DNA of 64,000 bases from Strigamia acuminata. Its lineage: Eukaryota. Shown one piece after another: positions 3,903-41,616 of this stretch. The stretch covers positions 19,220,001 to 19,284,000 of the forward strand of contig OX442314.1 in NCBI GenBank assembly GCA_949358305.1, read 5' to 3'. Position 1 is the stretch's first letter. Every line of letters starts with the position of its first letter. The position numbers were made by a program, and so were the translations under genes. The notes below the pieces were generated by a model. That model was not told the origin of the DNA. It searched no databases and was given only the letters and a program-made list of their open reading frames with translations.

Positions 3903-4305
3903 AATCAAAGACTGTCATTATCATTTTCTTTCTTACAAGTTATATCGTTGTAGCAGCGTAAAAACTGCTTCAAAAATTATAACTTCAAACCAGTTTGTTT
4001 ACATAAGTTCGAATTTAATCAGGCAGGTAAATGATTCTACATGTATAGAAGTATAGTAAGTATCTGCTTTGACATCGAACATTTCTTTGAATTGATAGTT
4101 TAAGATCGAACATATAAATATTTGAAGTATATTGACATTTTACGCAGGTACATTGCACTCGAGAACTGTTTGATTGAAATGATAAACCTGCAAACAAACT
4201 CCAATACTATCTCGCAATGCAATCAAAATCAAGATACCGGTATATTACTTTAAACGAACATTCTTAAGAAAATAGCAATTGGTTGACATCATGATTTCGT
4301 TTACA

Positions 4306-7300
4306 ATGAAGCGAGAAAGGTTTCTGATTTACAAATATACTAGAAGGCATGTAAAGACATTTTTGCAAATGATACAAGAGAGTAAAACTTGCAATCAGCC
4401 TTTAGTAGGAGTGCGCTATATGAATAGCAGTAAACACGTTGCATTCAGAGCTATGTGGTTTGGTCTTATATTGTGCTGCCTCTCAGTTTGTGGTTATCAA
4501 ACGCATGAGCGTTTTACTCATTATTTTGATTTTCCAGTTAGAGTAGATGTTGATTTTAGTGAAAGTACAAATTTACTTCTACCATCTACAACCATCTGTT
4601 CCCAAGATACGGATTTATGGGTAGAATATGTCAAAGAAAATCCAAAGTTGCAAGAAGCAATGCAATTACATCAGCAAAATCTTCCTTGTGCGAATCAACT
4701 CTTCAAATTCTATCAATCTATAAATAAAAGCAACGTTGCAGATATTTGGAAAATGTTCAACACCTCTTCGGTTATAGAAGAAAGCAATCTGTGGAAGGTA
4801 ATGTTTTTATAGCATGAATAATTATTCTTATTTGTTAAAAATTAATTTAGGGAACCAAAAAGCTTCGCAATGTGAAATCAACGGCTGTCAATTTACCAAT
4901 GGGCATTTGTACAATGTTTACGTTCGGTAAGTATTTGGAAGAGAAATTATAGAACTTTATTTTTATCATAATAATTTTAATTACAAACAGACAATAAAAA
5001 TAATGATACAGCAGCAAATGAATTGCATGTGACAGTCAGAAAACCTAACGGAGGTTGTGATCGAAGTTCGGCAATAATGGTAAGAAATTGCTATGCACCT
5101 AGGTGCGGCACAAAAAATTATGAACACGTGAAATTTGTTTGTTTTCAATTGATCTCGTCATTTTATGGTTTTCTAACCTATTCCAATCGTTTTTTCACAT
5201 CAAAATATGCAAGAAACCTTGTTTTTTAACATGGAAACTTTTATTTTTCTCTCGTAATCAACTAAAATGAAAAAACACCCTGGTTCAAAAAATTATGAAC
5301 AGTTGGTTAACAATGATTTATGACAATGTAGGCAATGATTTAGTACCATTTAATACCAAGTAAAGTTACCCTACTTTAGTATGCCTATGTACACCCTGTC
5401 TAACATGGAATTAATTAGTGATTTTAATGTGGTGTTAACATGGTCTGCGACGCATTTTCCATTTGACTGTAAATAAAAATCAGTCTGCTCGAAAAATTGC
5501 TAATGAATTGAGTGTAAATGTATAAAATACCACATTTACTTGAGTTTTGAAGAAGAATGACAATAGTAAGTAGATGAAAAAGAAGGCAAAACCCTTCCTA
5601 AAAAAGAAGCGCAAAGAAGACCTTTGAAAAATACTCATCTTCTTTATTTAAATTATGCCAATAGTATTTATTGCCATCTGGGTCATTAAGGTTGAACTTT
5701 TTTCATCACAGAAAATTATTTTTTTCCATTCTGCATCCCAGGTTTAATATTTTTTTGCCCACTTTAATCTGTCTTCTTTGCGCTTCTTTTTTAGGAAGGG
5801 TTTTGCCTTCTTTTTCATCTACTTACTATTGTCATTCTTCTTCAAAACTCAAGTAAATGTGGTATTTTATACATTTACACTCAATTCATTAGCAATTTTT
5901 CGAGCAGACTGATTTTTATTTACAGTCAAATGGAAAATGCGTCGCAGACCATGTTAACACCACATTAAAATCACTAATTAATTCCATGTTAGACAGGGTG
6001 TACATAGGCATACTAAAGTAGGGTAACTTTACTTGGTATTAAATGGTACTAAATCATTGCCTACATTGTCATAAATCATTGTTAACCAACTGTTCATAAT
6101 TTTTTGAACCAGGGTGTTTTTTCATTTTAGTTGATTACGAGAGAAAAATAAAAGTTTCCATGTTAAAAAACAAGGTTTCTTGCTTATTTTGATGTGAAAA
6201 AACGATTGGAATAAGTTAGAAAACCATAAAATGACGAGATCATTTCAAAACAAACAAATTTCACGTGTTCATAATTTTTTGTGCTGCACCTTAATTGTGC
6301 TCCTGTGAAAATAAGTATATCTTAACCATTTACTGGCAGATGACATTTCAAGATAATAACTTTAAATCTGATCTGAAACAATTCTGGCACATTCCGACTA
6401 ATTTCCAAGTGGATGTTAACGTCCAATGGATTAAGGTGGCTGTAATAATATAATACATTCTTTTTAACTTTTGCACCATTGGCTATTGACCTGTCCACGT
6501 CACAAATAAATAATAGAAAAATAGTACGGAGTACTAAAAATGCAACGAGACATCTAATGTATTCTTCATGCGTTCGTTCCATCGATGAATTCGGATTCGG
6601 GGAGGGAGCGATTCACAAGTCAGCCATTAAGTTCAGCAAGATTTGCGTAAGAATTTATTTAGCATAAACTATATAGGTGGCACTAGGAATGCGCAGCGAC
6701 ACAAATTAACATAGAATTCAACATGGAGTTCAGACATTCCAGTATCTACCTCAAAAGGACGTTGATCGAAAAAAGCAACTACCGTATAATATAATAAGGA
6801 TGATAACGTAATAATGATTTTTATTAGTTAGTCGGGTCTGGGTACGGTTTCAATCACAGTTTCGAGCACAGCTTCACAGTCTCTGTTCTTGAACTTGAGG
6901 TCTTCTTATTGGTTAAGATTACACGATTCAGTTATTTGTATCCTCGAGCTTGTAATGCCAAACCAATGAAAATTTGTCGCAAGTTTTTGTCTCGTTGTAT
7001 ATAAACATTAGTCTTTTCTTATAAAATTCTTTATTCTTAATGCAGTACAATTTTTTACCAACAAACAATCGAAGTACAAGTTGCGTTTCTGTGCAAGAAT
7101 ATTTAGATTGCTCAATGTCCTGCCATCAGTGGTTGTACGATCAACTTAATAAGAAGTACAATTGGAGTATTAATTGCAAGTAAGTAACATTTTACTTTTA
7201 CACAATCATAAATACTTGTTGGGTAAGAAGAATCTGGGACTGTGCACAGTTTAATTAAGATAAAACTTATATTTCGTCTGAATATAGATACCCATTTGAG

Positions 7301-9261
7301 GATGAAGTCGATTTACCCTTGTGCAATACACCTTTACAGAAATTTGAATTTAGTACGTTAATGGCTTTACGTTTTGATCCATCTAGTTGTCACTGCGTGA
7401 GACATTGCGATAATCATGCATTTGATTTAAGCATGTATTATTATTTTAACAAAGATCCAGGAAGTAATATTAGAATTATAAAACACAAATACGTAACATC
7501 GTTTAACGAGATGTACGATTATGATGGTTTTACACTTCTGGGTGATGTTGGTGGAAACGTTGGCCTTTTATTGGGATTATCGGTTCTCTCGCTGTGCGAA
7601 ATATTGAATTGCATATTCTTACGGATTAAAACACAGAGAAAACTTAGAATTTTTAGAAGGTCCCTTCCAAATAAAAAAATGTGGTCTATATTTAAAAAAG
7701 AAATGATTAGAATTAAGATGACTCAAACCCATGCATCAATACCACTGACCCGATTACTGAAAGATAATCAGTTAAAAACTTTGAATATTTTGATGATCAG
7801 CATTTATTTCGCGCTTGCAATTCTATGTTCATCTTTTACTTGGGACAGAATGCGCTTTTACTGGAAATATCCCACTAAAAACATAGTAATAGTCGATAAG
7901 GATAAATGGGTTACATTTCCAACAATCACAATATGTGCAGCAAATACATACGTTGGGAATCTAAGAAAATTATATTATGAAAAAACTGGCAAAAGAACTT
8001 GCATGACATTAGATAACTACGTAGATATGGCTGGAATCTCAATTAAAGAGATGTGGGAAAAATCTGCAACAAGTTCTTTAATTTACCACCAACCACCATA
8101 TGCGCAAAGTTATCCTTTGGATTATGTAAATATAATTTTGATTCCATTATATTAGAAATTATAAACTTTTTGTTTAGGAGTTTTTTGACATTGAGAAATT
8201 TGATCGATATATGATGAATGCAACTACAACCTATTCGAATGTTTCGACCATTTACGGAAATTGTGTACAATATGACAGAGGTAGAAAAATAATATACGAA
8301 AATAAAAGATGAAATTATAAAACTCAACATATACGGTAATTTAGGTAAACAATATATGTTTGGAACTACAGCGACGTTTTCAAAAACAATATTGAATCGT
8401 ATTAATGGCTCTGATTGCGAACCTTTAGTGATATCTGTAAGTGAAAGTCTTCTATTCTACTTGTATCAATAAAAACATCGTTCCAAATTTACAAATGCAT
8501 TTGTTACTTAGATTTTTCTATCGCCTAAAAATTGTCCAATGCACTTTGGGTTGTTAAGTAGATTAGAAGTACCAGTGAATAGAGTTTCAATTATTACATT
8601 GAAATACAGAAAAGTAAATCGTGTAGTCTTCACAATAAAATAAATCGAAAATTCAGTAAACAACTTATTCAACTTATTCATTTTTTTAGCTGTACAGATT
8701 GAAGACTCCCAATTACAATTGCCAAGGAAGGAAAAAAGCTCTTAAATGTTTTACCGCATGTCGTGAAGAAATACTAATGAAAAAAATACCATGCAGGAAA
8801 GTTTGCATTTTTGTACTTAAACTATTGTATCATTGATTTGAGTAGTATCAGGTCTAATTTAAGTTCATTATTCTAACAGATTGCCCTTTATGCCTGAAAG
8901 TAATAAAACTGTATGCTGCACAAATTCAAGCTTTGCAATCATTGCAAAAAGAATGTACGACAAAATCTATTTAAAGAAAATGACAAATGAAGAATGTTAT
9001 TGTGTTTTACCTTGCACCGAAGATGTGTACGAATATCATGACTTCAGTGAGCCTCAAGAGGAAATGCACACTTTCATCAGTATATTTTTCGGCTCGACTC
9101 TCTTTGAAACTATACATGAAAAATACTGCTATGAGATAATCAAATGTATCTGCGATATCGGTTCCATTCTCTCAGTTGGTTTAGGTTTTTCGGTTTTAGT
9201 GTTTTTTGAAACACTGCAATATATCACTGAAAAAGTCTGCCGTTTGATTCATATAACTTAG
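4306..9261 (+). CDS. Two-domain (tandem-fused) DEG/ENaC family channel, copy A, ~836 aa, 11 exons
   Basis: Exons 4306-4797, 4851-4926, 4991-5079, 6340-6435, 7046-7179, 7288-8125, 8178-8280, 8345-8436, 8512-8613, 8690-8796 and 8880-9261 sum to 2511 nt in frame. Motifs: TM1 + LPSTTIC; Cys-rich thumb; TM2 YDGFTLLGDVGGNVGLLLGLSVLSLCE; second TM1 + FPTITIC; second TM2 CDIGSILSVGLGFSVLVFFE. The model needs a GA donor at 8797. Confidence 0.88.
5102..6290. mobile_element. Foldback/long-TIR non-autonomous element in intron 3 of copy A
   Basis: Near-perfect inverted arms of ~520 bp (5102-5621 and 5771-6290) around a ~150 bp spacer. The equivalent intron of copy B is only 54 nt. Confidence 0.8.
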
Positions 9262-17664: not shown

Positions 17665-20297
17665 TAGACATTGCAATGACTATGTATTTGATTTGAGCAT
17701 GTATTATTATTACAACAAAAATTCTGAAACTAATATTAGAATTATTAAAGATGAATACATGACATCATTTAATGAGATATACGATTACGATGGCTTTACA
17801 CTGTTGGGTGATGTTGGTGGAAACATCGGATTTTTATTGGGATTATCAATTCTCTCTCTGTGTGAAATACTGAATTGCATATTTGTTTGGATTAGAGCAA
17901 AAAGAACTGATAAAATTACTTTCATGAAGTCCTCTATGTCAAAAAAAATTTGGGCCATACTACGAAAAGAAATGATTAAAAAGAAAATTACTCAAAATCC
18001 TGCATCAACACCACTTACAAGGTTACTGAAACTTAATAAGTCAAAAACTCTAAATTATTTGATGGTTGGCGTCTATTTAATACTTGCAATCCTTTGCACA
18101 TATTTTACATGGGACAGAATGTGTTTTTACATGAACTATCCTACTAAAACTGTAGTTATAGTAGATAAAGATAAGATGATTACATTTCCATCTATCACAA
18201 TATGTGCAGCAAATAATTATGTTGAGCACCTAAGAAAATTATACGTTGACAAGACTGGCAATAAAACTTGTATGACATTAGATAATTATGTGGATATATC
18301 TGGATTGTCAGTGGATGATATGTGGAAAAATTCTACAACAAGTGATGTAGTTATGAATCAACTAAGAAATGGAAGTTATTTTGTGTCTTATGTAAATGTA
18401 ATATTAAATGCATTTATTTTTTGTTAGTTTAATGTATTTATTTGCAGGATTTTTTTTATCTGGCAAACTACGATAAAATTGTGAATGTAATCTATTCTAA
18501 TATTTCAACAATATACGGAGAATGTGTACATTATGAAATCGGTGGGTGAAAATATATAATAGAAATTTACAAGTTGAATTATTTATGTTCTAAACTTTAG
18601 GTAAACAATATATGTTTGGAACCACAACAGTTTTTTCAAAAACAATAATTAATCCTGCTCCTTTTTCTTCTTGCGAACCTTCTGTAACATATGTAGGTAC
18701 AATGTTTTAGCTATCACTTTTAAGAATCAGTTTTTGGCAAAAAATATATTTTGATTGATTTTTGCTTCTTTCTTAAAATCTGTTCGCATTAACATAACGC
18801 TTTTATAATGTCATTGTACTAAACGAACGATTCTCTATAACTTTAGTCTTGCTTTGCTAATTAAAAAGTTATCCTAGAACTTAAAAAAACATTTTTATGA
18901 CCTGGATTATTTGTTATTTGATGGAGATAGTGTTACTTCAAACATGTTTCGTCTTTGTTCCTAAAATAGATTTTTCTATCACCTGAAAATTATCCGATAG
19001 AATTGGGATTGCTAAATAGAATAGAAGTACCAGTGAGACGAGTGTCAATTATATCATTAAAATACAGAAAGGTAAATAGTGTATTCCTCCAAATAATATA
19101 AAGTAAATAACTTACCATATTCTAATTTTAGCTCTACAGATTGAACACTCCGAATTATAAATGCCACGAGAGAGAAATTGCTGTTAATTGTTTTACTGCA
19201 TGTCGTGAGAAATTGCTAACTAAAAAAATACCTTGCAGGAAAGTTACTTTTTCCCGCTTTATCTACTGTTATAACTTATTTTTGAAATCTAATTTAATCT
19301 TATTATTCTTACAGATTGCCCTTCATGCCTAAAAGTAATAAAATTGTACCCTGTATAAATACAACTTCTGCAACTACTGCAAAAAGAATGTACGACGAAA
19401 TCTATTTAAAGAAATTGTCAGAGAAAGAATGCAATTGCGTATTGCCTTGTATTGAAGATGTTTACGAATACCACGACTTCAGTGAGCCTCGACAGGAAAA
19501 GCACACTTTTATCAAAATATTTTTTGCTTCAACTCTCTTTGAAATCTTACATGAGAAATACTGCTATGAGATAATTAAATGCATCTGCGACATCGGTTCC
19601 ATTCTCTCAGTTGGTCTCGGCTTTTCTGTTTTAGTGTTTTTTGAAACACTGCAATATATTATCCAGCGTCTAGCATTGCTTAAAGCGGTTGCCGTTTGAT
19701 CAAGTTACCTATAAATGAGACTACCGTATTGTATTATTAATATGCATTTTATATTATTCCGCGCAGATGCCATTCAGAATCACAATAATATGTCTAAAAG
19801 CAATTAAATCAACTAGAACTTCAAGTATAATCCCTAGTAAACTCAACTAATCTCTCAGAAACTGCTAGGTAGATGGAAATTTCCAATCAGAATTTAGAAC
19901 ATTGATTGTTTAGACAAGCATTAAAATTTTAACTTTATTATCTTTATTAGTTCAGGGCCAAATCACTTTTATGAGCGCACAATTTATGATAATAATTATA
20001 CAATTCTGTATTTGCACATCACATTTGTTAGTTGAAATAAAATGACGAGTTGTAGTAAATACAATAAAATGCATTGTGGAATTCAAACATTTTAGTAGAA
20101 ATTCAGTCACCCACTCAACACTTGAAAAAAAATTTTTTTTTTTTATTATTATTATTTGGAATTTATTTGTTAAATACCAAAGCTTCAAATTGGCGCCGGG
20201 GACCGTTTAAAAGCCGGGGTCCCAAAAATCAACGATTTGTTCTTTGACATGTTTTAAACATCTCAAAGAACGAATACCAGTAGCTTGCCTTTTTCGA

Positions 20298-21811: not shown

Positions 21812-24800
21812 ATGAGAAACGTTAGAAGAAAACTCTTAGTAAAGGCAATTCGATTGGAATTGGAGTCAAAAGGGCTTCAAATTCCAATTGTGGGATTATC
21901 GTTTGTGCTGAAAAATCAAAAATTAGAGTGGCTAAGAATAATATGGCTCGTTATTTTATTGTCATGCATTATAACTTGCGGTTATCAAGCCTACGATCGT
22001 ATACTGTATTACTGCTCATATCCGATTAGAGTTGACGTTAAGTACAGAAGCGGTGACAATTATCTTCTCCCCTCTGTAACTGTCTGTGCTCAAGATACAC
22101 CATCGTGGATTGAATATATTGATGAGAATCCGGTGGTTGCTAGTGAGATTCAACGGTTTCAAGATCTTTATCCATGTGCCAATCAAATTTTGGTTTTTTA
22201 TAATTTCATTAATAAAACATCAGTTGATGAGATTTGGAAAATGTTCAACACAAGTTCAATTCTTGACGGCTACAATTTAACGAAGGTAAGAATCTATCAT
22301 TCATGTTTTCCCAAAGTAAGTTTAAAAGTCAGCTAACTACATGATATTTGATCGCATTCAGGGCAAAACTAATATGCCAAATATTCAAATAGACTATGTA
22401 AACTTACCATTGGGCAGCTGTGCAAAATTTGCATATGGTTTGTATTGTCCCCCTCCCTCTCAACATACTTTTCTTGAAATTAATTCTACATTTAATTCTT
22501 ATTAGATGATACAAATGATGCAATTGCTGATACATTGGTTTTTAAAATTAAAAAACCCAAAGGTGGTTGTAACAGAACTTCTAGATTAATGGTAGTTGTA
22601 TTCAAATTTGGGTCCCATTTATTGCTCCATTAAATTTCCTTGGATTTCCACTGAAAAAAAACTAATTCTCCCACTTACTGAAATTTCCACTAACGCTCCT
22701 TTTTTGTTCCACCAAATTTATACACTAAAAAAAAACTAAATCTTCCACTAAAATCAAATTAGGGGAGAAAAAACTAATATTACCACTACTACTTATATAT
22801 ATATATATATTTTTTGTGCTGCAGCTGTGCGAACGTTTGGCTAACGTCGAGGACGACCAACCCTTCCCCCGCATGGTCTACGAGCGCCCCAACAGTCGCC
22901 CGCTCCCGCAACCGAGTCCTCGCCAAGGCCCGAGTCCTAGTCCCCAGTTCTAGTCACGTGTCGGGACCTAGTCCCAACTAGACCTCGGGGCCCCTCGCCG
23001 TTGCCATAGTCGTCCATCTCCCGCTCGTAGACAATGCGGGGGAGGGTTGGTCGTACTGCTCAATATACAAGAATAAGTTCCCTCACCCCACTTCTGGTGA
23101 CAAAATTGTACGACGGCGGCCACATCTCGCCGGGCGAAGGCTGGTTCGTCCGGGGCGCATTCGTCGCGTGTCTCCCCGTTCGTCGACTCCCGCCGGTCCT
23201 AGTCACGTGTCGGGACCCAGTCCCAACAAGACCCCGGGGCCCCTCGCCGGCCGCAACATCTTCATGGACGACTTCGACTATGGCCACGCGAATGTCCACG
23301 ACGACACACCACCCTCGTTTGTTGACTCCTGCCGCTCCTCGATGAGCCGGCGGACTCCCCAATTGTTGGAAGCTACGCAAGGCGCTGCAGCAATTGGGGA
23401 GTCTAGCGACCACGCCGTGGATTATCGTGGACATCCGCGTGGCCAATGAAGATGGACCCGATGTGCATGCCGAAGGCGATGTTGCAGCCGGCGAGAGGCC
23501 CCGAGGTCTTTTTGCGATGAGGGAACTTGTTCTTGTCCTATTATTGAGCAGTACCTAAGTAGAACGTGCCTTTGGGCGAGAAAAGGAAGCAAGGTAGACC
23601 ATCGAAAGCCAGGAAGGCCTTCCTTTTGTAATAAAAAAATTTAGTAGAAATAGTGGATGTACTTAGTTTTTTATAGTGGGGAAAGTCAATAGTGGGAAAT
23701 TTAGTTTTTTTTAAGTGTATAAATTTAGTGGAACCAAAAAGGAGCGTTAGTGGAAATTTCAGTAAGTGGGAGAATTAGTTTTTTTTTAGTGGAAATCCAA
23801 GGAATTTTAGTGGAGCAATAATATATACCCTTCAAATTTCGTATACTACAGTAGTAGTGTACGGATGTATTCAAGCATATTTTTATCTCACTGTTTTTAA
23901 TAGCTTACATTTCAAAAAAACCAATTAAAATCAAATCTGAAACAATTTTGGCATATCCCAACAAAGTCGAGAACTGAAGTGACTGTTGGATTGATAGAAG
24001 TAAACATTTTTTTTTGGTTTTAAACTTAATTTCCCTATTTGTAAATGTTGCGCCTAAATTTACTCATTAGTATAACTTCGTGAAAACTTATTTGAAAACG
24101 TGTGTTTCCATCGATGAATATGACAAGTGTGCCAGAGATTGTTTTCTTAAAGAATACGAAACTTGGAAGGAATACTTCACGTGCACGTAAATCTACAGTC
24201 ATACTTCCCATACGTCATAAGAAATATACAGTTGTTCTTTTATTCTTGTTACTGTAGATATCCATTTGATTCAGAATATTTAAATGTAACATCATGCATT
24301 CCCAATAGAGTTTTATACGTGCTACACTCACTCATACCGGTGCGCCTTAATCCAGTTGCTGAATGCAATTGTTCAGAACCATGCCACGAATACGCGTTTG
24401 GTATAGACATCAATTATTTCGATGATCAAAAAGCAGACACTAAAGTTAGAATTAAAAAAGGGACTTTTGTGACTACGTTCGACGAGTTATACAGTTATGA
24501 TATAGTCACACTGCTATGTGATATTGGCGGAAACTTAGGACTTTTGTTGGGCCTTTCAATACTTTCTATCTGCGAAGTAGTACACATATCGCTTAAGATA
24601 TTTTTTATGAAAAGGGAAATGAAAGCAATCAGAACCAAATCCAGCATTATTCGGAAGAAAAAAATTGAAGAAATTTGTAAACAGCAAATGATGAAAAATA
24701 AGGTTCCACCATTCGAAACGCCAATAAGCGAAAAGATATTGAAAAATAAGAAATCCTTCGCCAGTGTATTCTGCATTACAATATATTTGACCTCACTCGC

Positions 24801-27056
24801 TTTTTGTTCCTACATTACGGTAAATAGGACGTTATATTTCCTCAGTCATCCTACAAAAACCATAGTACAAGTCTACAGAAATCAAACTATTGAATTTCCA
24901 AGTATCACAATATGTGCAGATAATAATTACATTAAAAATTTAAGATATTTGTATTACATAATAACCGGAAATCGCTTGTGTTTGCCTTTGAGTCAATACT
25001 TGGACATATCTGGAACAACAGTACATAATTTATGGAATTACTCCGCTACAAAAGAAATCATCTTTTTCCAGTATCGTAATGGCATTTACAATGATGCTTT
25101 GGTACTAAATCATCTATTTGTTGAATTTAAAGTGTGTTTATTGAAATTGCATATTATTTATTCCAAAGAAATTTTTTATTACCGCCCTTATGAACTCCAG
25201 CATTGATCAAGCAGTTCATTCTGACGTTCCAACAGTCTATGGAAATTGCGCAGAATACAATATAGGTTTGTTACGTAACAATTGATCCTTTCATGACAAC
25301 TTATGCACCTTGAATTATAGATAAATCGCAAGAATTGTTTGGAACTACAACCGTTCTTGAAAGCATGATTAATGATGTCAATGATTCTTGTTGCGACCAA
25401 CCCGTGGCAACGGTAAGCTCACGAAAAGACATCCATTAAAAACTGTAGTTACACCGTAGACCAGCGGTCGGCAACTGGCGGCCCGCGGTCCGGATACGGA
25501 CCGCGGAAGGTCGAAACTTGGACCGCGGTGACGTTTTAGCGACGTTTTTCCCTCGGTTTCTTTGGTTTTTCGGTGTTTTTCTTCTTGTTTTTTTTTTTTT
25601 TTTCATGTTTTTTAGGTTTTATTGGTATTTTTTGTGTTGTGTGTGTTTATTGGGGGATTTATTTGGTTTTTAAGTATTTTCTTAGGTTTTTAGTAAGGTT
25701 TTTAAGTGTTTTTTTTCTGGACCTCGATAAAAATTTTCAATAGTATCCGGACCCTACTTAAAATTACTTGCCGACCCCTGCCGTAGACAAAAAAGATTTC
25801 TCTGAGTTACAGCTGGTTGTTAGTTTGACCACAAGCAAGCATGTAGAACCATTAAAATTTACTGACATCAGTATTTGCCCAGTCTATTTGTTTAATACTG
25901 TAGTCCAGGCAAGACAAGTTGATCATATTTTCCAGAATCAGGACTAATGTTATCGAATCTTAATAGCTTTTTATGCCACCTGGTAGATATAGGGTACTCA
26001 AAACATATAACTGAAGAGAAGTTTTTATGTACAAGCATCGTAACTAAACAGTATACAGTCGAAACTCTTTATAATGAATCGGGATATAACGAATTATCGC
26101 TATAACGAATTGTTAAAAATGACTTGGTTGGCCAGCCATAGCACCCCATGTTAAAAATTTTCTATATAACAAATTTCAATATAACAAATTATTCGTTATA
26201 ACAAACAAATTTTATGTACACTATAATACCCATAAGCCCTTGTTATAACGAATTTTCAAAACTGATCGCAGCATCTTATACCCATATACCCATATCCCTT
26301 GCGATTCGTTATAAAGAGTTTCGACTGTACAAGTATATCATATTTCTTAGGTTTTTCTAACACAGAGAGATGTTCCTTCGTATTTTGAATTACAAACAAG
26401 GCTCGAAATTCCAAGAAATAAAATAGCTCTTATCGCTTTAAAATTTCGAAAAGTAATTATAATACGATTAACAAATTTTAAAATTGAAGTAATGTAAATA
26501 TTAAATCAAGGTAATTAGAGTAAATAGCCAAGGCCACCAATGCTTGGATAGGGATACTGCAATCAATTGTCTTATTAAATGTCATTCAAGATTGCTTTTC
26601 AAACAAATACCATGCAGGAAAGTTCAATTTTAACTTATTATTAGATAATATAAAATTATTTTTATTTATTTCGGTTACAGATTGCCCTTTATGCCTGAAC
26701 ATGATAAAGTAAAATTTTGTACAACTTCAAGTTCTGCTGAATTAGCTAGAACAATTTATGAGTACGTTTATTTAAGGAATTATCCGGATAAAAGTTGCAA
26801 TTGTTTACCACCCTGTACTGAATTAATATACGAGTACAGCCACTTCATTGAACCTCACGAGGAAAAATTTACTTTTATTCATATTTTCTTTTCAAAAACA
26901 CTATTTGAAACGATTCAAGAAATTTATTCGTATACATTCATTAAATTTATCTGTGATGTTGGGGGACTTTTATCCATTGGATTAGGGTTTACTGTATTAA
27001 CAATGTTTGATACTCTTCAAACTTTAATAAGTTTTACGTGTTCTTTCAAACAATAA
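21812..27056 (+). CDS. Two-domain DEG/ENaC copy C, apparently intact
   Basis: Exons 21812-22285, 22362-22437, 22506-22591, 23904-23999, 24071-24186, 24258-25101, 25169-25265, 25321-25412, 26351-26452, 26511-26617 and 26681-27056. Motifs LPSVTVC, LLCDIGGNLGLLLGLS, FPSITIC and CDVGGLLSIGLGFT. GA donor at 26618. Confidence 0.87.
22610..23830. mobile_element. Non-autonomous Mutator (MULE)-like element with a GC-rich interior, intron 3 of copy C
   Basis: 9-bp TSD TTCAAATTT (22601-22609 and 23831-23839); TIRs of ~130 bp starting GGG and ending CCC. Confidence 0.8.
25462..25780. mobile_element. hAT-like MITE
   Basis: 8-bp TSD CCGTAGAC; termini cagcggtcggcaa and ttgccgacccctg. Confidence 0.8.
26056..26327. 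mobile_element. Tc1/pogo (Tigger-like) MITE
   Basis: TA|cagtcgaaactctttataa ... ttataaagagtttcgactg|TA. Confidence 0.8.
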
Positions 27057-28652: not shown

Positions 28653-29614
28653 TTTTATTAAGACTGTACATCTTTCTCAATATATACACCAATTATCCCC
28701 AAAAATTTTAAAGTCAATACCCCTGTGCCCAATTCGGAAAGTTACAAGAACTTGTTTACAAGTCAGTCTATCACAGTCCTGCATGACTAATTTAAAACCA
28801 TAAAAATGAATACCATATCAACTAAAGTTTAGTAAATATGTTTATTCTTGAAGCTATGCAGATAATTAAAGTCATATATTTTATTATCTTGACTAAATTT
28901 ACAATTTTACGATAATAAAGTATATTTATATTAAATGACCTGAGTTTTCTTTATTGACCAGTTACTTAAGGTAACAGCCTGCGTCTATGGTAGTCATTAC
29001 TGGTAGTATATTTAATCTACTTGAGATGTACAGCAGCAACTTAAAAAAAGATGCCAACTATTATGTAGGGATAAATATCAAACCAGATATAGCCTGTATG
29101 AAAATTGTCGCAAAATTGACATTCTTTGTCATTTTATTACGTAGGTAGCTGTAAATTGATTTTTTATTGCATAAATTGATTTTTTTGCATATTGTATGAG
29201 CATAAAATGATTTTTTTTTACGTGAACATTGTATTAATTATTTCAACAGTTCTGCTTCTGCACGACTTGGCTGACATTAGACATAAATCATTTGAAAATT
29301 ACCTTGCCAACCAATATTCATTAATTACCTTCATTACTTGTAATAGATATAATTAGGGTCATAACATTTAACTTGATACATAATTTACTGAAACGATGCG
29401 CGTGTAAAAAAAACAATTAAACTGCTGTATATTCTTTTTTATTGATATTTTAATGAAACTATATCCATGGCACGTGTGTGTCGACATTAGTGCAAGCAAT
29501 TCAAGTTAGCTATCAACATGCAGCAACATTTTGAGTTACCTGAGACAAATATTAGACGACGACTGTTAAAACAGATAATTCGGACGGAATTGAATTCTAC
29601 ACAACTGAAGATTC

Positions 29615-31904
29615 CAATTATACAACAGCGGAAATAAATATTGCTAATTTAGGAATTGTCTAATTTCTCCATTTGAACTCAGAACTTTAAAGAAAAGAAA
29701 AAACCACCACCAGGTTACACCCTTACTGCGGGCTACGGACAGTCCAAATCCTCAGTCTAATTTCTTCTGCCATTTTGGATTCCACGGAAAATTTTTGCTG
29801 CTTCTTTTTGGTTAGTTTTCGAATTAATTTTGCTTTTTGACGGACGATATTATCGTCGCTAACACGTCCCAACGTGGCCGCCCGCCAACCGCCAAGCAGA
29901 AGGCGGCTAGGACTGCCGTTGTCTTTGAAACGACCGACCCGAGCCAGTACGGCGTTGCTGTGGAAGAGTCACGTCAGTCGGACGTTGCCGATACCGTCGC
30001 TTCAGCAGACTGGAGCAGAGGATGTTTTTGGCTGGTTTGTCTTTTTCGGTTAAGTCCTCTTTCTGCCCCGCGGAACGCGCCTTTGGGACGCGAGGGGTGA
30101 GGCCCATGTAATGCCCGTAACATGTCTCGCTCTGTTGCTGGGGTTTTGGTTCAGGTTCACCGAACCGAGGTTTTGCCCGCTGCAAAGCGGAGGTTTTGCC
30201 CGCTGCAAAGCGGAGGTTTTGCCCGCTGCAAAGCGGAGGTTTTGCCCGCTAACAAGCGGAGGTTTTGCCCGCTAAAAAGCGGAGGTTTTGCCCGCTAAAA
30301 AGCGGAGGTTTTGCCCGCTAAAAAGCGGAGGTTTTGCCCGCTAAAAAGCGGAGGTTTTGCCCGCTAAAAAGCGGAGGTTTTGCCCACTAAAAAGCGGAGG
30401 TTTGCCCGCTACAAAGCGGAGGTTTTGCCCGCTACAAAGCGGAGGTTTTGCCCGCTAAAAAGCGGAGGTTTTGCCCGCTAAAAAGCGGAGGTTTTGCCCG
30501 CTAAAAAGCGGAGGTTTTGCCCGCTAAAAAGCGGAGGTTTTGCCCGCTAAAAAGCGGAGGTTTTGCCCGCTAAAAAGCGGAGGTTTTGCCCGCTAAAAAG
30601 CGGAGGTTTTGCCCGCTAAAAGCGGAGGTTTGCCCGCTACAAAGCGGAGGTTTTGCCCGCTACAAAGCGGAGGTTTTGCCCGCTACAAAGCGGAGGTTTT
30701 GCCCGCTAAAAGCGGAGGTTTTGCCCGCTACAAAGCGGAGGCTTTGCCCACTCAAAACAGAAGTTTTGCACGCTAGAAAAGCGGAAGTTTTGTCCGCTAC
30801 AAATCCGGAGTTTTGCCCTGTTTTTCGGATTTTTCTCTGGACAGCGCACATGGGTTGTGGCTGCAAATGTTGCTGCGCAGCTAAGGAAGTTTTTTCCGCT
30901 TCAAGGCGGACGCCGAGTTATTTTTCCCACCAAGCAGAGGTCGGTCTTGTCAGTGCACATGGGCTTCAACTGGTCAACTGATGGAGTGCAAATAGTTTTT
31001 GCAATTTTCGGCGATTCATTTGTTTTTTAGCAAATGAATTTTGTGCATTTAAAGCTTTCTCACACCTCAAATATCAGAATAGTCTTTCTTGCAATATCAG
31101 TTGAAACTATTGGTTAATGTGAGATTCTATAAGCTTTACGTGACTATTTACAAAATAAACCTCACTTTTTTCTAAGACTTAGGTTCCCATCTGGTTATTC
31201 GCCGGATCCTGAGGGGCGTGTCTCTTTCTAGACCAACTGTCCCGAGATACTCTAATATCTGGCACATAGGCCCGATTTTAACGCATCTCAAACGTCTCTT
31301 TTCCGTCCCTAATCTTTCGAGACTGTCGAGAAATCAGCGTCTGGCTACTCTTTTGGCTCTTGCATTGGCAGACAGAGCGGGTAACCTTTGACTACTCTCA
31401 GCAGACATTTGGTTTTTCGATTATTTTTGCATGGTCCCTCTGTGCGGTTCTCGTAAATCCGCGTATCTAGCGCCTCTTTGCAGCGCGTCCTTTCACGACG
31501 AGGAGTTATGTCCGGTGGTTGCTTTGCGTCGGTTCCTAAACTTTACCGCTTCTTTGAAGGGTAGTTCAAAACAATTTTTTTTTCTCTCTGGCTTGCCACC
31601 GTCTGGCCCGGTTTTCTCTACGACCATCGCGAGGTGGATTAAGGGCGTCCTCTCTGACGCGGGGGTAGATACCTCCGTTTTCTCGGCCCATTCAACCAGA
31701 GCTGCAGCCACGTCGTTCGCGGCTAGTAGGGGAGTCTTTAGAGTGCATTATCAAAGCCGCCGATTGGTCAACTGCCGATCGAATCCGCTTTGGAAGAATT
31801 TGCTTCTGTAGTATTAAGGGGCTACGAACGTTCCTAAATTAGCAATATTTATTTCCCTTAGTATAATCTAGATTTTGCTTCACTATACTAGCAAAATCCC
31901 AATT
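29615..31904 (+). mobile_element. Internally deleted DIRS1-like (tyrosine recombinase) retrotransposon remnant
   Basis: Bounded by CAATT at both ends. Recombinase remnant 31431-31811 (LCPV...TIARWIK...FSAHSTRAAATS) resembles the ORF at 61188. The left-end sequence ggaaataaatattgctaatttaggaa is inverted at ~31830-31856. Confidence 0.75.
30167..30820 (+). repeat. 23-bp minisatellite, roughly 27 copies, inside the DIRS remnant
   Basis: Unit aagcggaggttttgcccgct(aaa/aca/gca) repeated head to tail with no spacers, decaying toward the right end. Confidence 0.9.
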
Positions 31905-34722
31905 GTAGGATTATCATTTCTCGAGAAAAATGAACGACCAATGTGGATAGGAATAATATGGCTCATTATTCTATTGTCCTGTGTTGTAGCATGCGGTTAT
32001 CAAGCCTATGACCGTATACTGTATTATTGTTCTTATCCAATTAGAGTTGACGTTATGTTTAGTAGTGGTGCTGACCGTCCCCTACCATCTGTAACCGTAT
32101 GTGCGCACGATACACCATCATGGATTGAACATATTGAAGAAAATAAGACGTTTGTTAACATGGTTCAGAGATTTCAGGAAACCTACCCATGCGCAAATCA
32201 AATGTTAGTTTTTTATGATTTAATTAATAAGAAATCAGTTGATGAAATTTGGGAAATGTTCAACACAACTACTGTTCTTGACAGCTACAATCTACGGAAG
32301 GTAGGCAATAATAATTTTCAAGTTTTGTAATAAGTGTTTGGAATTGTTATCAGTATCACCGTTGTTATTCATGTTTATTAATTGTTTCGATTCACTCGGT
32401 AGTCATTTTCGCATTTGATTGTATTCAGGGGAAACGTTTGCTGCCAAATACAAATATCCAACTAAATCAGACAAATTTACCTTTGGGATCATGTTTACAA
32501 TTTTCATACGGTTAGAACCATTTTTTCCATTTTTTTGCCCTCGGTTGAAACACTAAGATATTGTATGTTTTATTATTTTATTAGATGAAAATGGAGAAAA
32601 AGCTGACGTATTAGATTTTATAATTAATAAACCCAAAGGTGGTTGCAATAGGACTTCTAGATTAATGGTAATTTAACTAATGGTAAATATATTCGATTCT
32701 TATCAAAATAATTAAATTTTACAGCTTACATTTCAAAAAAATCAAATTAAATCAAACTTGAAAGAATTTTGGCATCTTCCAACAAATTCAAGAGTTGAAG
32801 TAAATGTTGCATTGATTGAAGTAATATTTATTATTTGAATATTATTAACATAATTATTAATAATTTAATATTATTGAATAAATGTGTGTGGAAACTGGCG
32901 GTTTCCAAAGTGAAATAATTTAGTTGAGTGTTTTGACCACCGTGGCACAAGTGAAAACTTACTTGTGACCCGGATTAAATGTATTCTTGGAATTGGGGAT
33001 TATCTTAATCCCTTTGCTTTATATACTCAAAATTGAATAAAATTATCACTGTCTTTTCAAATGTAACCTTGTCTACATCGTTCTTTGAGTTTACAACAAC
33101 CTTCGATCCGAATCCGACTCCATCCGTAGTTTTAATAAGTTTAAGGAGTGTTTCATTTATACAAGTTGCTCGTGCAACGTCTCAAATGTGTATTTAGTAT
33201 AATTTTGTCAAAAGTCCTTGGCAAAAATGTGATTCTGCCAAAGACTACAAAAGATGTTCGGAGAATTGTTTTAAACTTTCGTATTCAGAAGTGCAATCTA
33301 CATACAAGTTTCTCAAATGCAGGTAAAATTTAAAATCATACACTACCTGTTCTGTTTCGAAAACTTTATCACAAACTCCCATACGTTGGGCATCAATGTA
33401 TGTATCAACGTGTACACAATGCAGTGATCCGGGTTATTCACTGTAGAAATGCTCAAATTGAGACTTAGTTTCCGAAAATAAATAATTAATTACCGGTATG
33501 TGCATGATGGCGATGACTCCAGAGCAGCTTGATGGTGTTCCTCGATCGGTGGGTGAGCGCTCTGATCGTAATCAGAGATCACAAATACACAAAGTTGATA
33601 CACACAGATGATAGCTGGATTTGCTTAAACAAAGCAAAGACAGCAGAAGTCTCAAATCACTCAAACAATAACACAAGTCAGTACTGGCGAGCAATGACAA
33701 GGTGTTTTGCAGGTTTATAGATGAAATCAAGTGTGGGTCAGAAATCCGAGGGATCGGCCTGGCACACTCCAAATCTGCTCAGCAGACCTGCGCAGAGACA
33801 ATAATTTGGTGCAACAATTATAATTGCACCACAACCCGAAAGAATTGGCCTCCCATCTCTCCCTAAGATGGGCATTATTTGACCCAGATTCTGCGCATGC
33901 GCAAAATCCGGGTCTTAAAAATTTCCGAAGGAATTTGGCCAACACGTGTGTTTTTGACAACAACAAACATGGCCGCCGCAATACCTGGTGGCAATGATTG
34001 ACATTAGCGGAGCCTGCTGATGATCATGATTTGTGTCCTTTGGACTCCTAAGATGGGTCTTTTTTGACCCAGTTAAACTTTGAGTTCAAATTATAGAAAA
34101 ACTTAAAAAATTAAAAAAGTTTCAACTGTGGTATAGTGTCTAGTGATGTTTCAAAGGAATAGTCAGCAAAAATCAGAGAAAAAAAAAATTATTTCTTATA
34201 AAAATAATGATTTTTTTAAAACAGGGTCACAAAATGACCCATCTCAGGGTTGGAAGGGTTAACTGCGCCTGCGCATCTAAATACGTCATCACAATTCCGA
34301 AAATGTTTTGTAAAATGTATACAAAATGTCGGTGACTTCTGGTGACCCCTTTACACTTTTCTCTTGCTTTTGGTAGCATGCAGATGTGTCAAACTTGGTT
34401 TTAATATTTCATTGATTTGTTTATTCCTTGGTTGTTTTCAAGATGTCGACTGACTTGTGAGTAGCAAGTCTACTACGTAGTATTCAACTCCCTCTCACTG
34501 CAGATATTATGGGAAAACATGAGCAATTCATGGCTCTTGATTTTGAATATAAACACATACAACCCAAAATATCGATTCCCATTTCACTGAAATTTAATAT
34601 TCTTGTGGAGTTTCGACTAAAATATAAAGTCAGAAGTGGGAATAAACAATTCAATGCCACAATTGACCAGAAAATCAGCATTGCAAATTGGATAAATTAT
34701 TTAACTGCTCTCTCCAATAGTA

Positions 34723-35167
34723 CAGGGTAAGCCAGAGAGATCTGACGATTTTGAAAATGTAATTACTCTGTAACTACTGTAATTACAATTTTTATTTGAA
34801 ACTAAAACCATTTAACAGAGCTAGAAATGCCATTTTTACGTCTGAAAAATGTGTTTCTTTGCTCCACACATGATGATGCGATGATACATCGTCCATTGCT
34901 CCAGGATCACTGAAATGGCATTGGTTGAGCCATTGCTTCCCCACAACAATCATTATTCTAGTCAAAATGGTTGCTTAAAGATAAGCACATAAAAATCTTC
35001 AGGTCTCTCTGACTCATAAGGAAAGTGACCATCCGAGTGATATAATTTTTCAGACATAAAAATGGCATTTTAAACTCTATAAAATGGTTTTAGTTTCAAA
35101 TAAAAATTTAAATTAGTACCAGAGTAATTACATTTTAAAAATCCTTAGGTTTCTCTGGCTCACCCTG
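34723..35167. mobile_element. Tc1/mariner-like MITE
   Basis: TA|cagggtaagccagaga ... tctctggctcaccctg|TA with ~100 bp imperfect TIRs. Confidence 0.75.
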
Positions 35168-35672
35168 TAGAACATTCACTTGACTGGACATTCTTCGAAC
35201 CAAACAAATTCTGGAGGTCATTTTATGTCCAAACCACAGAGTATAGTCTACTGTATTTCCATGCTGATGGTCTAAATATTGAAATTAATTTTTTCGTAAA
35301 TAGAAATTTTTTATCACCACAATTCTGACCCCGAGCGAGAACGCAGCATTATATTCTCATGTTCCAACACTGTATGGACATGATATATGGTGTTGATAAT
35401 ATTTTTTGTCAACAACCAATAGTAACGGTAAGCTTCTTACATCGCTTTAGACGAAATAACTTCGCTTTAGACCAAATAAATTTGATTTCTTACTGTTTGT
35501 TATTTGTAGATATTAATAACCGAGAAAAACGTTCCTTCGTATTTTAACTTAAACACCAGGCTTGAAATTCCAATGAATAAAATAGCCCTTATTGCTCTCA
35601 GATATATAAAAGTAAATATTATGACTTGAAAATATAATCATTACAAATGTCTTTAAAGATTATTAGAGTAAA

Positions 35673-38600
35673 TGTGAAAACTGGCGTTGTTAGAAGTAAC
35701 AAGGTCGCACGAGTTCGAGGGAAAGAGCACGGCGCAGCACAGAGAAGCCAACCTGCAGGTGGTGTTTTTGAGTGATATTGGATGACGCGTGACCGGAAGT
35801 GCTGTAAAAGTGTCATAAATTATCTTGTTTCACCCTTTGTTCCCCTGAATTTGTACTTGTGACCCCCAGAAATTACAATAAACTTGTTCTTAACCCAAAA
35901 AAGACATGCTTTATTTCGAGAATTCATAAAAGTTAGAAAAGTAGTAAATTTACACAGTTTTAGTCAAAATTAGTTACAAATCGACTTTGCGAATCTTCAA
36001 ATGGTGCCGAAACCCGGGAAAATCAGTGAATCCGGACAGAAATAAGTAGAAAACAGCATCGTAAAGCCGACCACGCCGAATTTTGACCGAAAATTTCAAG
36101 ATGGACGCCCTTGATCGTTTGCGCGCTCAACAAGCCACGTCCAGAGAAGGAGCCAAGCGGTTATGTAATGCGGTACTCGTCGAATTAGCCAACGTTGCTC
36201 CAGAAATCCTCGCGTTGAAACGATTAAAAAACCAGTTGTTAGCAAAGAGTGAACAATTGACAGCGCTCGACGATAAGATATCGCCGATGATTGTTACGCG
36301 TGCGGATTTGGAGAAAGAAGAAAGCGACAACGAAGATTTCCGTGAGTTGATAATCGACTCTCTTACCGATATTGAAGTCAAATTGGAAGAACTTTTACGG
36401 CCACCAGCACCAGTTATACCCCCAGCGATTCCAATCGGCGGCAGCGCCACGAGCAACTCAGGCGAAGGGACAATAAAGCTGCCAAAGTTAGTAATGCGGA
36501 ATTTCAGCGGGAATCCTGTTGAGTGGTCAAAGTTTTGGTCCAATTTCGAGTTGAGTGTCCACGGCAACGGTTCACTTACAGCAAAAGCCAAATTCGTATA
36601 TTTGAACTCAGTTCTCGAAGGTACTGCAGCAACAGTTGTTCATGGTCTCAAAATCAGCGATGAGAACTATGAAACTGCAGTGACTTTACTTCAAAATCGA
36701 TTTGGGCGAAAAGAAGTCATTGTGAACGCTCACATTCAGACTTTGATGAAACTTAAACCAGTAAAACGAGTTAGCGACCTCGTTGAGTTGCGTAGACTCT
36801 ACGACACGTGCGAATTGCATATTCGAAGTCTCGAGACTGAAGAAATCGATACAGCCACGTTTGGAATTGTATTGTGTCCATTGATACGAAATGCGGTGCC
36901 TGACGTTATTGCACTTGATTTTGCACGCAAAAATAAAGAAAACACTCACGATATGAAACTGTTTTTGGAGTTTTTCAGAGCCGAACTGGAGTTACGAGAA
37001 GAACACGTAGCCGTGAGCGACCAGACAGAGAAACCAGCCGCCAAGACGTTCGTCGACTACAAGAAGCCGACGCGTAACGACAAAATAGCCTCAGCCAATG
37101 CATTGACTACCAACGTTTCATCATCCAGTTGCGTATTCTGCGACGATGCGTCGCACAAGAAGGAAGATTGTCCGCTCAACATTCCAGATCGATTGAAGCG
37201 GTGCATGTCAAAACGAACGTGTTTTAGATGTTTGGGCAGCAAACATATGGCGCGCAGCTGTCCCCAGAAAGAGAAGTGTGTGAACTGTGAGCGGTTTCAC
37301 CATATCCTGTTGTGCGAAGCGTCGAATACCAAGCCAGAGACCGTGCTTGTGTCGACGTTGACAGCAGCAGCAATTACAGCAGAGAACACTGACTTATTTT
37401 TGCAAGTATTAATGACAAATGTGGAATCGAATTGTAAAACCAAGGCTGTGCAGTGCATGTTTGATGGCGGAAGCCACAGATCGTTTATTAGCCAGAAACT
37501 AGTGAATGAACTCGATGCCCAAGTAGTGGGTAAGCAAAATATGCAGATTTCCAGTTTTGGCGACTCTAAAACAGAGAGCGTTTGTCGTCGTCGCGTGAAA
37601 GTGACTTTAAGAAATATTACCGATACTAATAAGTTTGTTGATTTAGAATTGATCGAGGTGCCACGAATAACTCACTCAGTCGCGAGGCAGTCGGGTCCAA
37701 ACGTGCGCGAGATGTTGCGCAAACACAAGATCACCTTAAATATCGACCAGATGTCGACCCAACAAGACGAGGTGGCAATTCTAATTGGAGCGGACCACTT
37801 TTGGCGTATCGTAACAGGCGAATCGAAACGTTTAGATGAGGGATTGATGTGTCTTCACACGTCTCTCGGTTGGACAATCCACGGCGCGATCAGAAGCCAA
37901 GATGAAACGGTTAGACAGTCAGCAACCCACGTGAATCTTGTGCAGTATGAAGACCGACTCGACCACCTTCTTCAACGTTTTTGGGAGTTGGAAGCAGTAG
38001 GCATTCCCCACGAAACTCTCACCAGCGCCCAGGACGAAGATGATCAAGCAGTAGCAAAATTTAAAGAGTCCATCAACTGGACGGGTGAGCGGTACGAGGT
38101 GCGACTGCCTTGGTTGCTGGACAAATCAGAGTTGGACAGCAACTATCAAATTGCACTTAAGAGACTGTGGAATCTTGTTCGCAAGTTTAAACAAAATCCG
38201 GACTTGTACCACCGCTATAAGAAGGTTCTGGACGACCAGAAAATCGCTGGAATAATCGAAACGGCCCCAGAAGTAGCCAACCAGACTGGGTGTTACTACC
38301 TCCCACATCGACCAGTAATTCGAGAGCGGAGAAGCACCACAAAATTGCGCATAGTCTACGACGCCTCGTCGCACGCGCAGAAGAGTCGCTCTCTCAACGA
38401 CTGCCTGTTTACAGGGCCAAATCTCCTTCCAGAATTAATCAATGCCCTTTTATTTTTCAGACAATTCATTGTGGCATTGATTGGAGACATTAAACAAGCG
38501 TTTCATCAAATTTTGCTGGCGTTAGCTGACCGAGATGCGGTGAGGTTTCTGTGGATCGCGGATGGATGGGACGTTGAAGGACCAATTGTGTTGGAGATTC

Positions 38601-41600: not shown

Positions 41601-41616
41601 TTTGCGAATCTTCAAA
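35673..41616 (+). mobile_element. Full-length BEL/Pao LTR retrotransposon
   Basis: LTRs ~35673-36001 and ~41288-41616 (one mismatch seen). TSD GTAAA. PBS TGGTGCCGAAACCCGGGA (36002-36019) is complementary to the tRNA-Phe 3' end. Inserted in exon 10 of copy D. Confidence 0.95.
36101..41292 (+). CDS. BEL/Pao gag-pol polyprotein with one frameshift near 39580
   Basis: KLPKL...FSGNP..W..FW gag motif, CCHC knuckles, protease FDGGS, RT YLPHRPV...YVDD, RNase H FCDAS...PRLEL, integrase GVDFAGP...SDNA...WWGGFWE. Split across ORFs 36083-39607 and 39463-41292. Confidence 0.9.

What the first reader, a model, noticed from the sequence alone, without database searches (positions are those of the whole stretch)
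8795..8880. Conserved non-canonical GA-AG intron required to make the second pore helix
Seen: all five copies with this region read TGC AG|GAAAG(T/G) at 8797, 19239, 26618, 41715 and 47767, followed by an acceptor CAG|(A/G)TTGCC. The final exon is in frame only with a phase-2 donor at GA, which equals AG|GTAAGT with +2 T>A. The matching intron in domain 1 is a normal phase-2 GT. The GT four bases downstream gives IALYA*/IALHA* in A-C, also frameshifts to an early stop in F, and is absent in D. Established: GA-AG introns are rare but reported in some animals. Inference: either constitutive GA splicing, or a GA/GT choice that switches between full double channels and forms lacking the last TM2.
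Basis: partly seen in the sequence, partly recalled or inferred. Interest (0 to 1): 0.75.

Follow-up and report, generated by a model that had tools for sequence, protein, structure and literature searches.

The report
Conserved GA-AG intron in double ENaC
Five copies of a doubled sodium-channel gene, likely from a soil centipede, all begin their last intron with GA instead of the usual GT, and the cell most likely cuts there to make the channel's second pore helix, a rare but known kind of intron that no RNA has yet confirmed here.

Summary
Five tandem double-domain DEG/ENaC genes (closest named relatives: Strigamia maritima) carry CAG|GAAAG at the last intron; all 49 other donors examined are GT, and short-read DNA contigs confirm two of the sites. 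Only a cut at GA gives C-R-L-P-F-M, the motif of the solved centipede channel PDPNaC1, and a stop-free last exon under purifying selection (dN/dS 0.22-0.37). The GA flanks outscore all 43 GT donors tested in 4 of 5 copies and fit both the U5 and U6 donor classes (5 of 5, against 1 of 49). The GT at +5 scores near the bottom and leads to an early stop. Best reading: a major-spliceosome GA-AG intron made by one old T>A change, tolerated because its flanks are held at consensus, and used as the main route. A regulated GA/+5GT switch is not excluded (yeast HEH1 has the same geometry), but nothing here supports it. No RNA crosses the junction, so splicing is inferred. GA-AG introns are known; this is a new, old, well-kept example. 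The double-domain channel itself may be the more novel thing.

The parts
8797..8879 (+). GA-AG intron 10 of copy A (83 nt, phase 2; donor CAG|GAAAGT, weak GT at +5)
   Evidence: DNA contig of X1 spans it with no difference
8690..8796 (+). exon 10 of copy A, ends K-I-P-C-(R)
8880..9261 (+). last exon of copy A: L-P-F-M, Cys-rich thumb region and the second TM helix of domain 2 (about 9139-9225)
7180..7287 (+). matching intron 5 in domain 1 of copy A, canonical phase-2 GT-AG
4291..9261 (+). copy A, intact 11-exon double-domain DEG/ENaC gene, 841 aa
10377..19699 (+). copy B, 830 aa when the 16332-17664 insertion in exon 6 is left out
19239..19314 (+). GA-AG intron of copy B (76 nt)
21812..27056 (+). 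copy C, intact, 821 aa
26618..26680 (+). GA-AG intron of copy C (63 nt; retention meets a stop)
29551..42150 (+). copy D, broken in this assembly (exon 6 missing, exon 7/8 deletion, insertions in exons 1 and 10)
41715..41774 (+). GA-AG intron of copy D (60 nt; +6 is G, so no GT at +5; retention is in frame)
   Evidence: DNA contig of X3 spans it
44254..48210 (+). copy F, intact, 822 aa
47767..47834 (+). GA-AG intron of copy F (68 nt)
45862..45922 (+). matching intron 5 in domain 1 of copy F, donor TGC AG|GTAAAA, the closest canonical counterpart of the GA site
50465..63924 (+). copy G, exons 1-6 only; runs off the window before the GA intron

Best explanation
The last intron of these doubled DEG/ENaC genes starts with GA in all five copies that reach it, and is most likely cut at that G by the ordinary major spliceosome as the main route, which would give the full four-helix protein with its second pore helix. 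Shown: the DNA motif, the frame, purifying selection on the last exon, and flanks at full donor consensus. Inferred: one T>A change at intron position +2 arose once, after the gene's internal duplication and before the A/B versus C/D/F split; it was tolerated because the exon end CAG (U1 and U5 loop 1) and the intron bases AAG-T (U1 and the U6 ACAGA box) supply both contacts that normal donors usually supply one of; selection since then has held the flanks rather than the A itself. The GT at +5 is then a by-product of the +5G/+6T consensus and would act at most as a leak to a truncated, probably useless product.
For: Gene models A, B (insertion-free), C, F are stop-free with intron phases 0,1,0,0,2 repeated in both domains. 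Last exon: 0 stops in the GA frame in 5 of 5 copies, 8-16 stops in the +5GT frame; dN/dS 0.22-0.37 in 10 of 10 pairs, like exons 1-10 (0.32-0.40). L-P-F-M right after the junction is invariant in 5 of 5 and C-R-L-P-F-M is the sequence of PDPNaC1 at the same place. Donor score without +1/+2: A, B, C, F exceed 43 of 43 GT donors, D 35 of 43; the +5 site exceeds only 0-5 of 43; 7 of 7 consensus matches in four copies against 0 of 43 GT donors. Both AG// and RAG: 5 of 5 GA donors, 1 of 49 GT donors, the pattern described for compensated GC donors (PMC11732430 section 15) and for copepod GA donors (PMC5714493). Neutral chance of keeping +3..+6 across A, B, C, F is about 1e-4. The human spliceosome cuts CAG|GAAAGTAT at +1 in a reporter with an upstream enhancer (PMC6280755). 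Two S. maritima automated models of this clade fail at this very intron, one ending K-I-P-C-R-K as read-through of the GA site would.
Against: No RNA read or transcript contig crosses the junction in any run laid, so splicing is not observed. In human fibroblast RNA, GA sites in donor clusters were only ever the less-used site (PMC6280755), and in the reporter the +5 GT was also used when a downstream enhancer was added. The +5 GT is present in 4 of 4 copies with an intact or nearly intact frame. A GC donor 24 nt upstream restores the frame in B, C, D, and the +5 GT has an in-frame acceptor 181 nt into the last exon in A, B, C and 19 nt in F, though each deletes invariant residues. S. maritima models outside the clade also break at the matching place in some domains (P0004, P0008, P0011), so model failure is not specific, and no S. 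maritima DNA was seen. The five copies share one origin and are not independent events. The neutral model rests on 123 fourfold columns with a saturated inner branch.
Confidence: 0.73

Rival explanations
1. Regulated choice between overlapping donors, /GAAA/GU, as in yeast HEH1/SRC1: GA gives the double channel, the +5 GT gives a chain with one complete subunit and a tail without the last helix, which could tune dose or fill the third place of a trimer.
For: Same 4-nt geometry and a change in membrane passes are described for HEH1 (/GCAA/GUGAGU; bioRxiv 10.1101/2025.06.06.658024, passages). The human reporter uses +1 and +5 depending on enhancers. The +5 GT is kept in A, B, C, F; the stop lies in the last exon, 5 codons in for A-C. 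No copy has reverted to GT.
Against: The +5 site scores above only 0-5 of 43 GT donors and its +3..+6 differ between copies; its +3 base is T in 4 of 4, whereas 41 of 49 GT donors have A. In HEH1 the downstream site is the strong, dominant one. Lack of reversion needs no selection: P(no A>T or A>C) about 0.34 under neutrality. D lacks the GT, though D is broken.
Confidence: 0.13
2. The last exon is reached through canonical GT/GC-AG pairs that differ from copy to copy, and the GA is not used.
For: 35-81 in-frame canonical pairs exist per copy; 7 pairs are shared by 3-4 copies; A has two and F one that keep both the Cys and LPFM by adding residues.
Against: No pair is shared by all five; B, C, D have none that keeps both the Cys and LPFM. 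Codons 1-60, which the +5/+181 route would drop, hold 16 invariant residues and have pN/pS below 1 in 10 of 10 pairs. It leaves the invariant CAG|GAAAG unexplained.
Confidence: 0.05
3. The same mRNA is made by another register or chemistry: the junction can equally be written AG-AC, GG-CA or CA-NA, or the pre-mRNA is altered at +2 before splicing.
For: Shifts of -1, -2 and -3 give the identical mRNA in 5 of 5 copies, so RNA-seq alone cannot tell them apart. RNA editing is raised as a possibility for GA-AG sites in PMC7072748.
Against: Only the GA-AG register puts the consensus in place and keeps the +1 G and terminal AG; no U12-type donor or branch motif is seen in the intron sequences (motifs recalled). 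A-to-U editing has no enzyme that I know of (recalled).
Confidence: 0.04
4. The +5 GT is used and a ribosomal frameshift at AGG AAA (A/G)TT restores the last exon.
For: AGG AAA is invariant; it would keep the last exon under selection.
Against: The +5 donor is among the weakest. AGG is a minority Arg codon here (16 of 146), and 0 of 11 invariant Arg columns keep AGG in all four copies.
Confidence: 0.03
5. The GA is a lethal donor mutation or an assembly error and the last exon is dead sequence.
For: No transcript was found; the array is full of transposons and holds broken copies D and E.
Against: DNA contigs confirm A and D; the last exon is stop-free and under purifying selection over dS of 0.6-1.8.
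Confidence: 0.02

Closest known systems
GA donors of the copepod Eurytemora affinis and of Oikopleura dioica (PMC5714493, whole text; PMC7072748, passages)
   Same: Exon ends in AG, A at +3, normal acceptor, needed for the full-length protein, breaks automated gene models.
   Different: There GA donors are common (about 12% of introns in the sampled E. affinis genes) and sit in recently gained introns. Here it is one intron position of ten, its twin in domain 1 is GT, and 49 of 49 other donors are GT.
Trema orientalis SYMRK intron 12 GA-AG (PMC10668435, passages)
   Same: Single rare GA donor in an old intron of a GT genome; spliced and functional, with slightly more retention.
   Different: SYMRK is a recent population allele derived from GC. 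This one is kept across paralogs at about 60% nucleotide identity.
Drosophila melanogaster GA-AG introns (PMC4528330, Table 3, passages)
   Same: Rare arthropod GA-AG introns (12 annotated, 12 with junction support), most without a similar canonical alternative.
   Different: Those are RNA-validated; these are not.
Vertebrate FGFR1-3 GA donor (Brackenridge 2003; not held, known from PMC7072748, PMC4176328, PMC5714493)
   Same: Conserved GA-AG intron across paralogs.
   Different: It is an alternative site that depends on a GT six bases upstream. Here positions -6/-5 are AT or TT, and the GA form is the only one that gives the full protein.
Yeast HEH1/SRC1 overlapping donors /GCAA/GUGAGU (bioRxiv 10.1101/2025.06.06.658024, passages)
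   Same: Non-canonical donor with a GU four bases downstream; the choice shifts the frame and changes the number of membrane passes.
   Different: In HEH1 the downstream GU is strong, dominant and gives the long form. Here it is weak and gives the short form, and no alternative use is shown.
Centipede DEG/ENaC channels PDPNaC1 (PDB 9jf7; PMC12714832) and BRTNaC1 (PDB 8ymr; PMC9974506)
   Same: Closest solved relatives (E 1.2e-17 and 7.8e-10); same short subunit of about 420 aa; PDPNaC1 has C-R-L-P-F-M at the junction.
   Different: They are single-domain homotrimer subunits; the window's genes join two subunits in one chain, and their ligand is unknown.

Membership tests
U2-type GA-AG intron | Intron starts GA and ends AG | tested here: met
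   5 of 5 copies
U2-type GA-AG intron | Exon ends in AG and +3 is A; flanks near the U2 donor consensus | tested here: met
   5 of 5; 7 of 7 matches in four copies, 6 of 7 in D
U2-type GA-AG intron | Removal gives the conserved protein | tested here: met
   Stop-free last exon, dN/dS 0.22-0.37, C-R-L-P-F-M as in PDPNaC1
U2-type GA-AG intron | Spliced RNA across the junction | tested here: inconclusive
U2-type GA-AG intron | Lariat begins at the G of GA | not testable with these tools
   AG-AC and GG-CA registers give the same mRNA
Eurytemora/Oikopleura-type genome-wide GA tolerance | GA donors at several per cent of introns | tested here: inconclusive
   49 of 49 other donors are GT, but they cover only nine intron positions of one family; no genome held
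FGFR-type composite GA donor | Canonical GT six bases upstream of the GA | tested here: not met
   Positions -6/-5 read AT or TT in 5 of 5
U12-type (minor) intron | ATCC-type donor and CCTTAAC-type branch site (motifs recalled) | tested here: not met
   Read by eye on the five intron sequences
HEH1-type overlapping alternative donors | GU four bases downstream of a non-canonical donor; use shifts the frame to an early stop | tested here: met
   A, B, C, F; absent in D
HEH1-type overlapping alternative donors | Downstream donor is a strong, conserved site | tested here: not met
   Scores above 0-5 of 43 GT donors
HEH1-type overlapping alternative donors | Both isoforms present and regulated | not testable with these tools
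   No RNA across the junction
DEG/ENaC (PF00858) | ASC domain match | tested here: met
   6 of 6 channel ORFs above the curated cut-off
DEG/ENaC (PF00858) | Two TM helices per subunit, Cys-rich ectodomain, G-x-S in TM2 | tested here: met
   Four hydrophobic regions per chain; GLS in domain 1, GFS (A, B), GFT (C, F), GLS (D) in domain 2
DEG/ENaC (PF00858) | Trimeric cation channel activity | not tested
   Single-sequence fold of a relative failed (pLDDT 32.6); no complex job was sent

The most novel reading that the evidence does not exclude
The GA/+5GT pair is an animal counterpart of the HEH1 switch that solves a counting problem: a two-subunit chain cannot fill a three-fold pore alone, so the +5 form supplies a chain with one working subunit, and splice choice sets the make-up of 2+1 trimers in a centipede sensory channel family that joins two DEG/ENaC subunits in one protein.
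Probability: 0.1. Interest if true: 0.82.

Novelty: new member of a known kind. Interest (0 to 1): 0.42.

Why it matters
If confirmed, it is a natural long-term test of how a spliceosome copes with A at +2 in a genome that otherwise appears to use GT: the twin intron in domain 1 is a built-in GT control, and the contrast (both U5 and U6 contacts in 5 of 5 GA donors, 1 of 49 GT donors) extends to GA the compensation described for GC donors. That bears on how +2T variants are judged. In practice it explains why public models of this channel clade are wrong at this point and why the family has been missed; anyone cloning these relatives of the centipede heat and proton sensors needs the GA junction. 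The kind of intron is not new.

Tried and rejected
RNA evidence: no RNA holder listed for 4200-9400. Six runs were laid as contigs (X1, X2, X3, X6 on 300-20200; X3-X6 on 41620-48300); none joins across a GA intron. X6, kind not on record, has one 182-nt piece in an F-like exon 6 and nothing at the junction. These blanks are no evidence on expression. No genome is held, so GA donors and U1 variants could not be counted; Rfam gave 0 hits in the window. Three word-index protein searches found nothing new; the profile search did. One search had five D donor coordinates off by one and is superseded. One fold request got no answer; a single-sequence fold of P0005 was useless (pLDDT 32.6) and was not searched. 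The tree is the quick version; the careful search did not finish; it holds 37 rows, built from 4 window models and 22 of the 150 hits, with D and G left out. A U-rich downstream enhancer is not special to the GA introns (T fraction 0.30-0.55 against 0.44 +/- 0.13). T at +7 in A, B, C, F would keep the +5 GT weak, but 16 of 49 GT donors have T there too and the copies are related, so it is only a hint. Literature: 'centipede' with 'GA-AG' gave 0 papers; searches for natural tandem DEG/ENaC listed none; the S. maritima genome paper has no ENaC mention in its main text, but only 7 of its 57 supplements were searched, so the unseen ones may bear on this; bioRxiv supplements were closed; the Frey and Pucker supplement has no Strigamia entry; Brackenridge 2003 is not held. 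Earlier scan findings: nothing relevant.

Full report
What the window is. The window holds a tandem array of DEG/ENaC genes among transposons. Six channel ORFs of eight sent match PF00858 above its cut-off. Models built by coordinates give four stop-free proteins of 821-841 aa: A 4291-9261, B 10377-19699 (without a 1.3-kb insertion in exon 6 that DNA contigs of X1 and X2 skip), C 21812-27056 and F 44254-48210. Each is two subunits in one chain: the halves are 20-23% identical over about 350 residues, there are four hydrophobic regions, and intron phases 0,1,0,0,2 repeat in each half. D is broken, E is an exon-1 fragment, and G leaves the window after exon 6. The top 9 profile hits, and 16 of the 20 hits looked up, are Strigamia maritima proteins; the closest solved structures are the centipede channels PDPNaC1 and BRTNaC1. 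The animal is therefore likely a geophilomorph centipede (inference).

The observation. TGCAGGAAAG occurs five times, once per copy that reaches the last intron, against about 0.05 expected. All 49 other donors examined in A, B, C, D, F, G are GT. Short-read contigs confirm the A and D sites. One X3 contig follows D through the fifth intron base and then F's last exon, a hint of a further paralog with the same donor.

The last exon is translated in the GA frame. It has no stop in that frame in 5 of 5 copies and 8-16 stops in the frame set by the +5 GT; dN/dS is 0.22-0.37 in all 10 pairs, with dS 0.6-1.8, like the rest of the gene. Thirty-nine of its first 120 residues are invariant, starting with L-P-F-M. 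The GA junction gives C-R-L-P-F-M, which is the PDPNaC1 sequence at this place. Canonical alternatives exist, 35-81 per copy, but none is common to all five; seven are shared by three or four copies and each removes invariant residues; only A and F have pairs that keep both the Cys and LPFM, by adding residues. Retention hits a stop or leaves the frame in A, B, C, F and is in frame in D.

The GA site looks like a selected donor and the +5 GT does not. Scored without positions +1/+2 on a matrix from the window's own 43 GT donors, the GA sites of A, B, C, F beat 43 of 43 and D beats 35; the +5 sites beat 0-5. Four GA sites match the consensus at 7 of 7 flanking positions, against 0 of 43 GT donors. 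Donors fall into an AG// class (U5 loop 1) and a //GURAG class (U6 ACAGA box) that rarely coincide, except at GC donors, where both are thought to compensate (PMC11732430, passages and section 15). Here 1 of 49 GT donors has both, and 5 of 5 GA donors do. On a fourfold-site tree of about 3 changes per site, keeping +3..+6 by chance has P about 1e-4, whereas never changing +2 from A to T or C has P about 0.34 (123 columns, rough). So the flanks are held, and the A needs no special pleading. Part of the exon-side constraint is also the Cys-Arg coding; in domain 1 the same position varies (AA, AA, AC, AG, AG).

Age. In a quick tree the window's domain-2 sequences form a clade (SH-aLRT 100) with S. 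maritima T1JE81 beside A/B and T1IPM9 beside C/F. T1JE81 ends K-I-P-C-R-K plus eight unrelated residues, as read-through of the GA site does in the window, and T1IPM9 drops the residues around the junction. Six other S. maritima tandem models (P0003, P0005, P0006, P0007, P0009, P0025) join this junction normally. This suggests one origin on the stem of the clade. It is indirect: I saw no S. maritima DNA, and P0004, P0008 and P0011, outside the clade or unplaced, also break at the matching place.

How it most likely works. U1, then U5 and U6, hold the site through both flanks with one mismatch at +2, and the major spliceosome cuts at the G (inferred). A human reporter with CAG|GAAAGTAT was cut at +1 with an upstream enhancer and also at +5 when a downstream enhancer was added (PMC6280755 section 5), which shows both that the cut is possible and that some leak to +5 is expected. 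Against a main-route role, that paper found GA only as the lesser site in human donor clusters; for it, copepod GA donors are constitutive (PMC5714493, whole text) and 7 of 12 fly GA-AG introns have no similar alternative (PMC4528330).

Rivals. A regulated switch has a close precedent in yeast HEH1, /GCAA/GUGAGU, where a four-base shift changes membrane topology, but there the downstream site is strong and dominant. I give it 0.13. The mRNA would be the same for AG-AC, GG-CA or CA-NA registers, so lariats, not reads, settle the chemistry (0.04). Copy-specific canonical pairs 0.05, frameshifting 0.03, dead exon or artefact 0.02.

What is missing. No RNA crosses the junction in any run laid, and no genome is held.

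Novelty. GA-AG introns are described in copepod, larvacean, fly, human and plant. I found no paper with both 'centipede' and 'GA-AG'. This is a new member of a known kind, notable for its age and its built-in GT twin. Interest 0.42. The two-subunit DEG/ENaC architecture, for which five searches listed no description, deserves its own follow-up.

Noticed in passing
window 4291-9261, 10377-19699, 21812-27056, 44254-48210: Each gene joins two DEG/ENaC subunits in one chain through a coding linker inside exon 6. S. maritima has several such two- and three-domain models, and a shrimp protein (P0037, Halocaridina rubra) has three. Domain 1 and domain 2 sequences group separately in a quick tree, pointing to one old duplication. 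How a two-subunit chain fills a trimer is open; five paper searches listed no description.
   Followed up: partly
window 16332-17664: 1.3-kb element with 434-nt inverted arms inside exon 6 of copy B; DNA contigs of X1 and X2 join across it, so it is likely polymorphic.
   Followed up: partly
window 41715-41774: In broken copy D the GA intron is 60 nt and stop-free, so retention would add 20 residues in frame; this could be chance.
   Followed up: partly
window 5101-6291: Near-perfect palindromic element (521-nt arms, 99%) in intron 3 of copy A, high-copy in the DNA runs.
   Followed up: no
window 35675-41615: Young LTR retrotransposon with a long ORF (Bel/Pao-like by my recall of the motifs; not tested) inserted in exon 10 of copy D.
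   Followed up: no
window 51636-56174 and 58303-62273: Gypsy-like and DIRS-like elements (labels recalled, not tested) with long open frames inside introns 1 and 3 of copy G.
   Followed up: no
window 44250-48300: X3 depth over copy F is 100-230 against about 30 over unique stretches, a hint of several F-like copies elsewhere; summed contig depth is not a copy number.
   Followed up: no
window 46749-47187: Copy F's exon 6/7 boundary is shorter than in A-C, and intron 6 is 439 nt; the model lacks about 17 residues here and may need checking.
   Followed up: no
window 146-847 (-) and 2644-3189 (+): Two related ORFs with no significant Pfam match upstream of the array.
   Followed up: no
window 30180-30740: Array of about 21-nt tandem units inside the insertion that splits exon 1 of copy D (by eye).
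   Followed up: no
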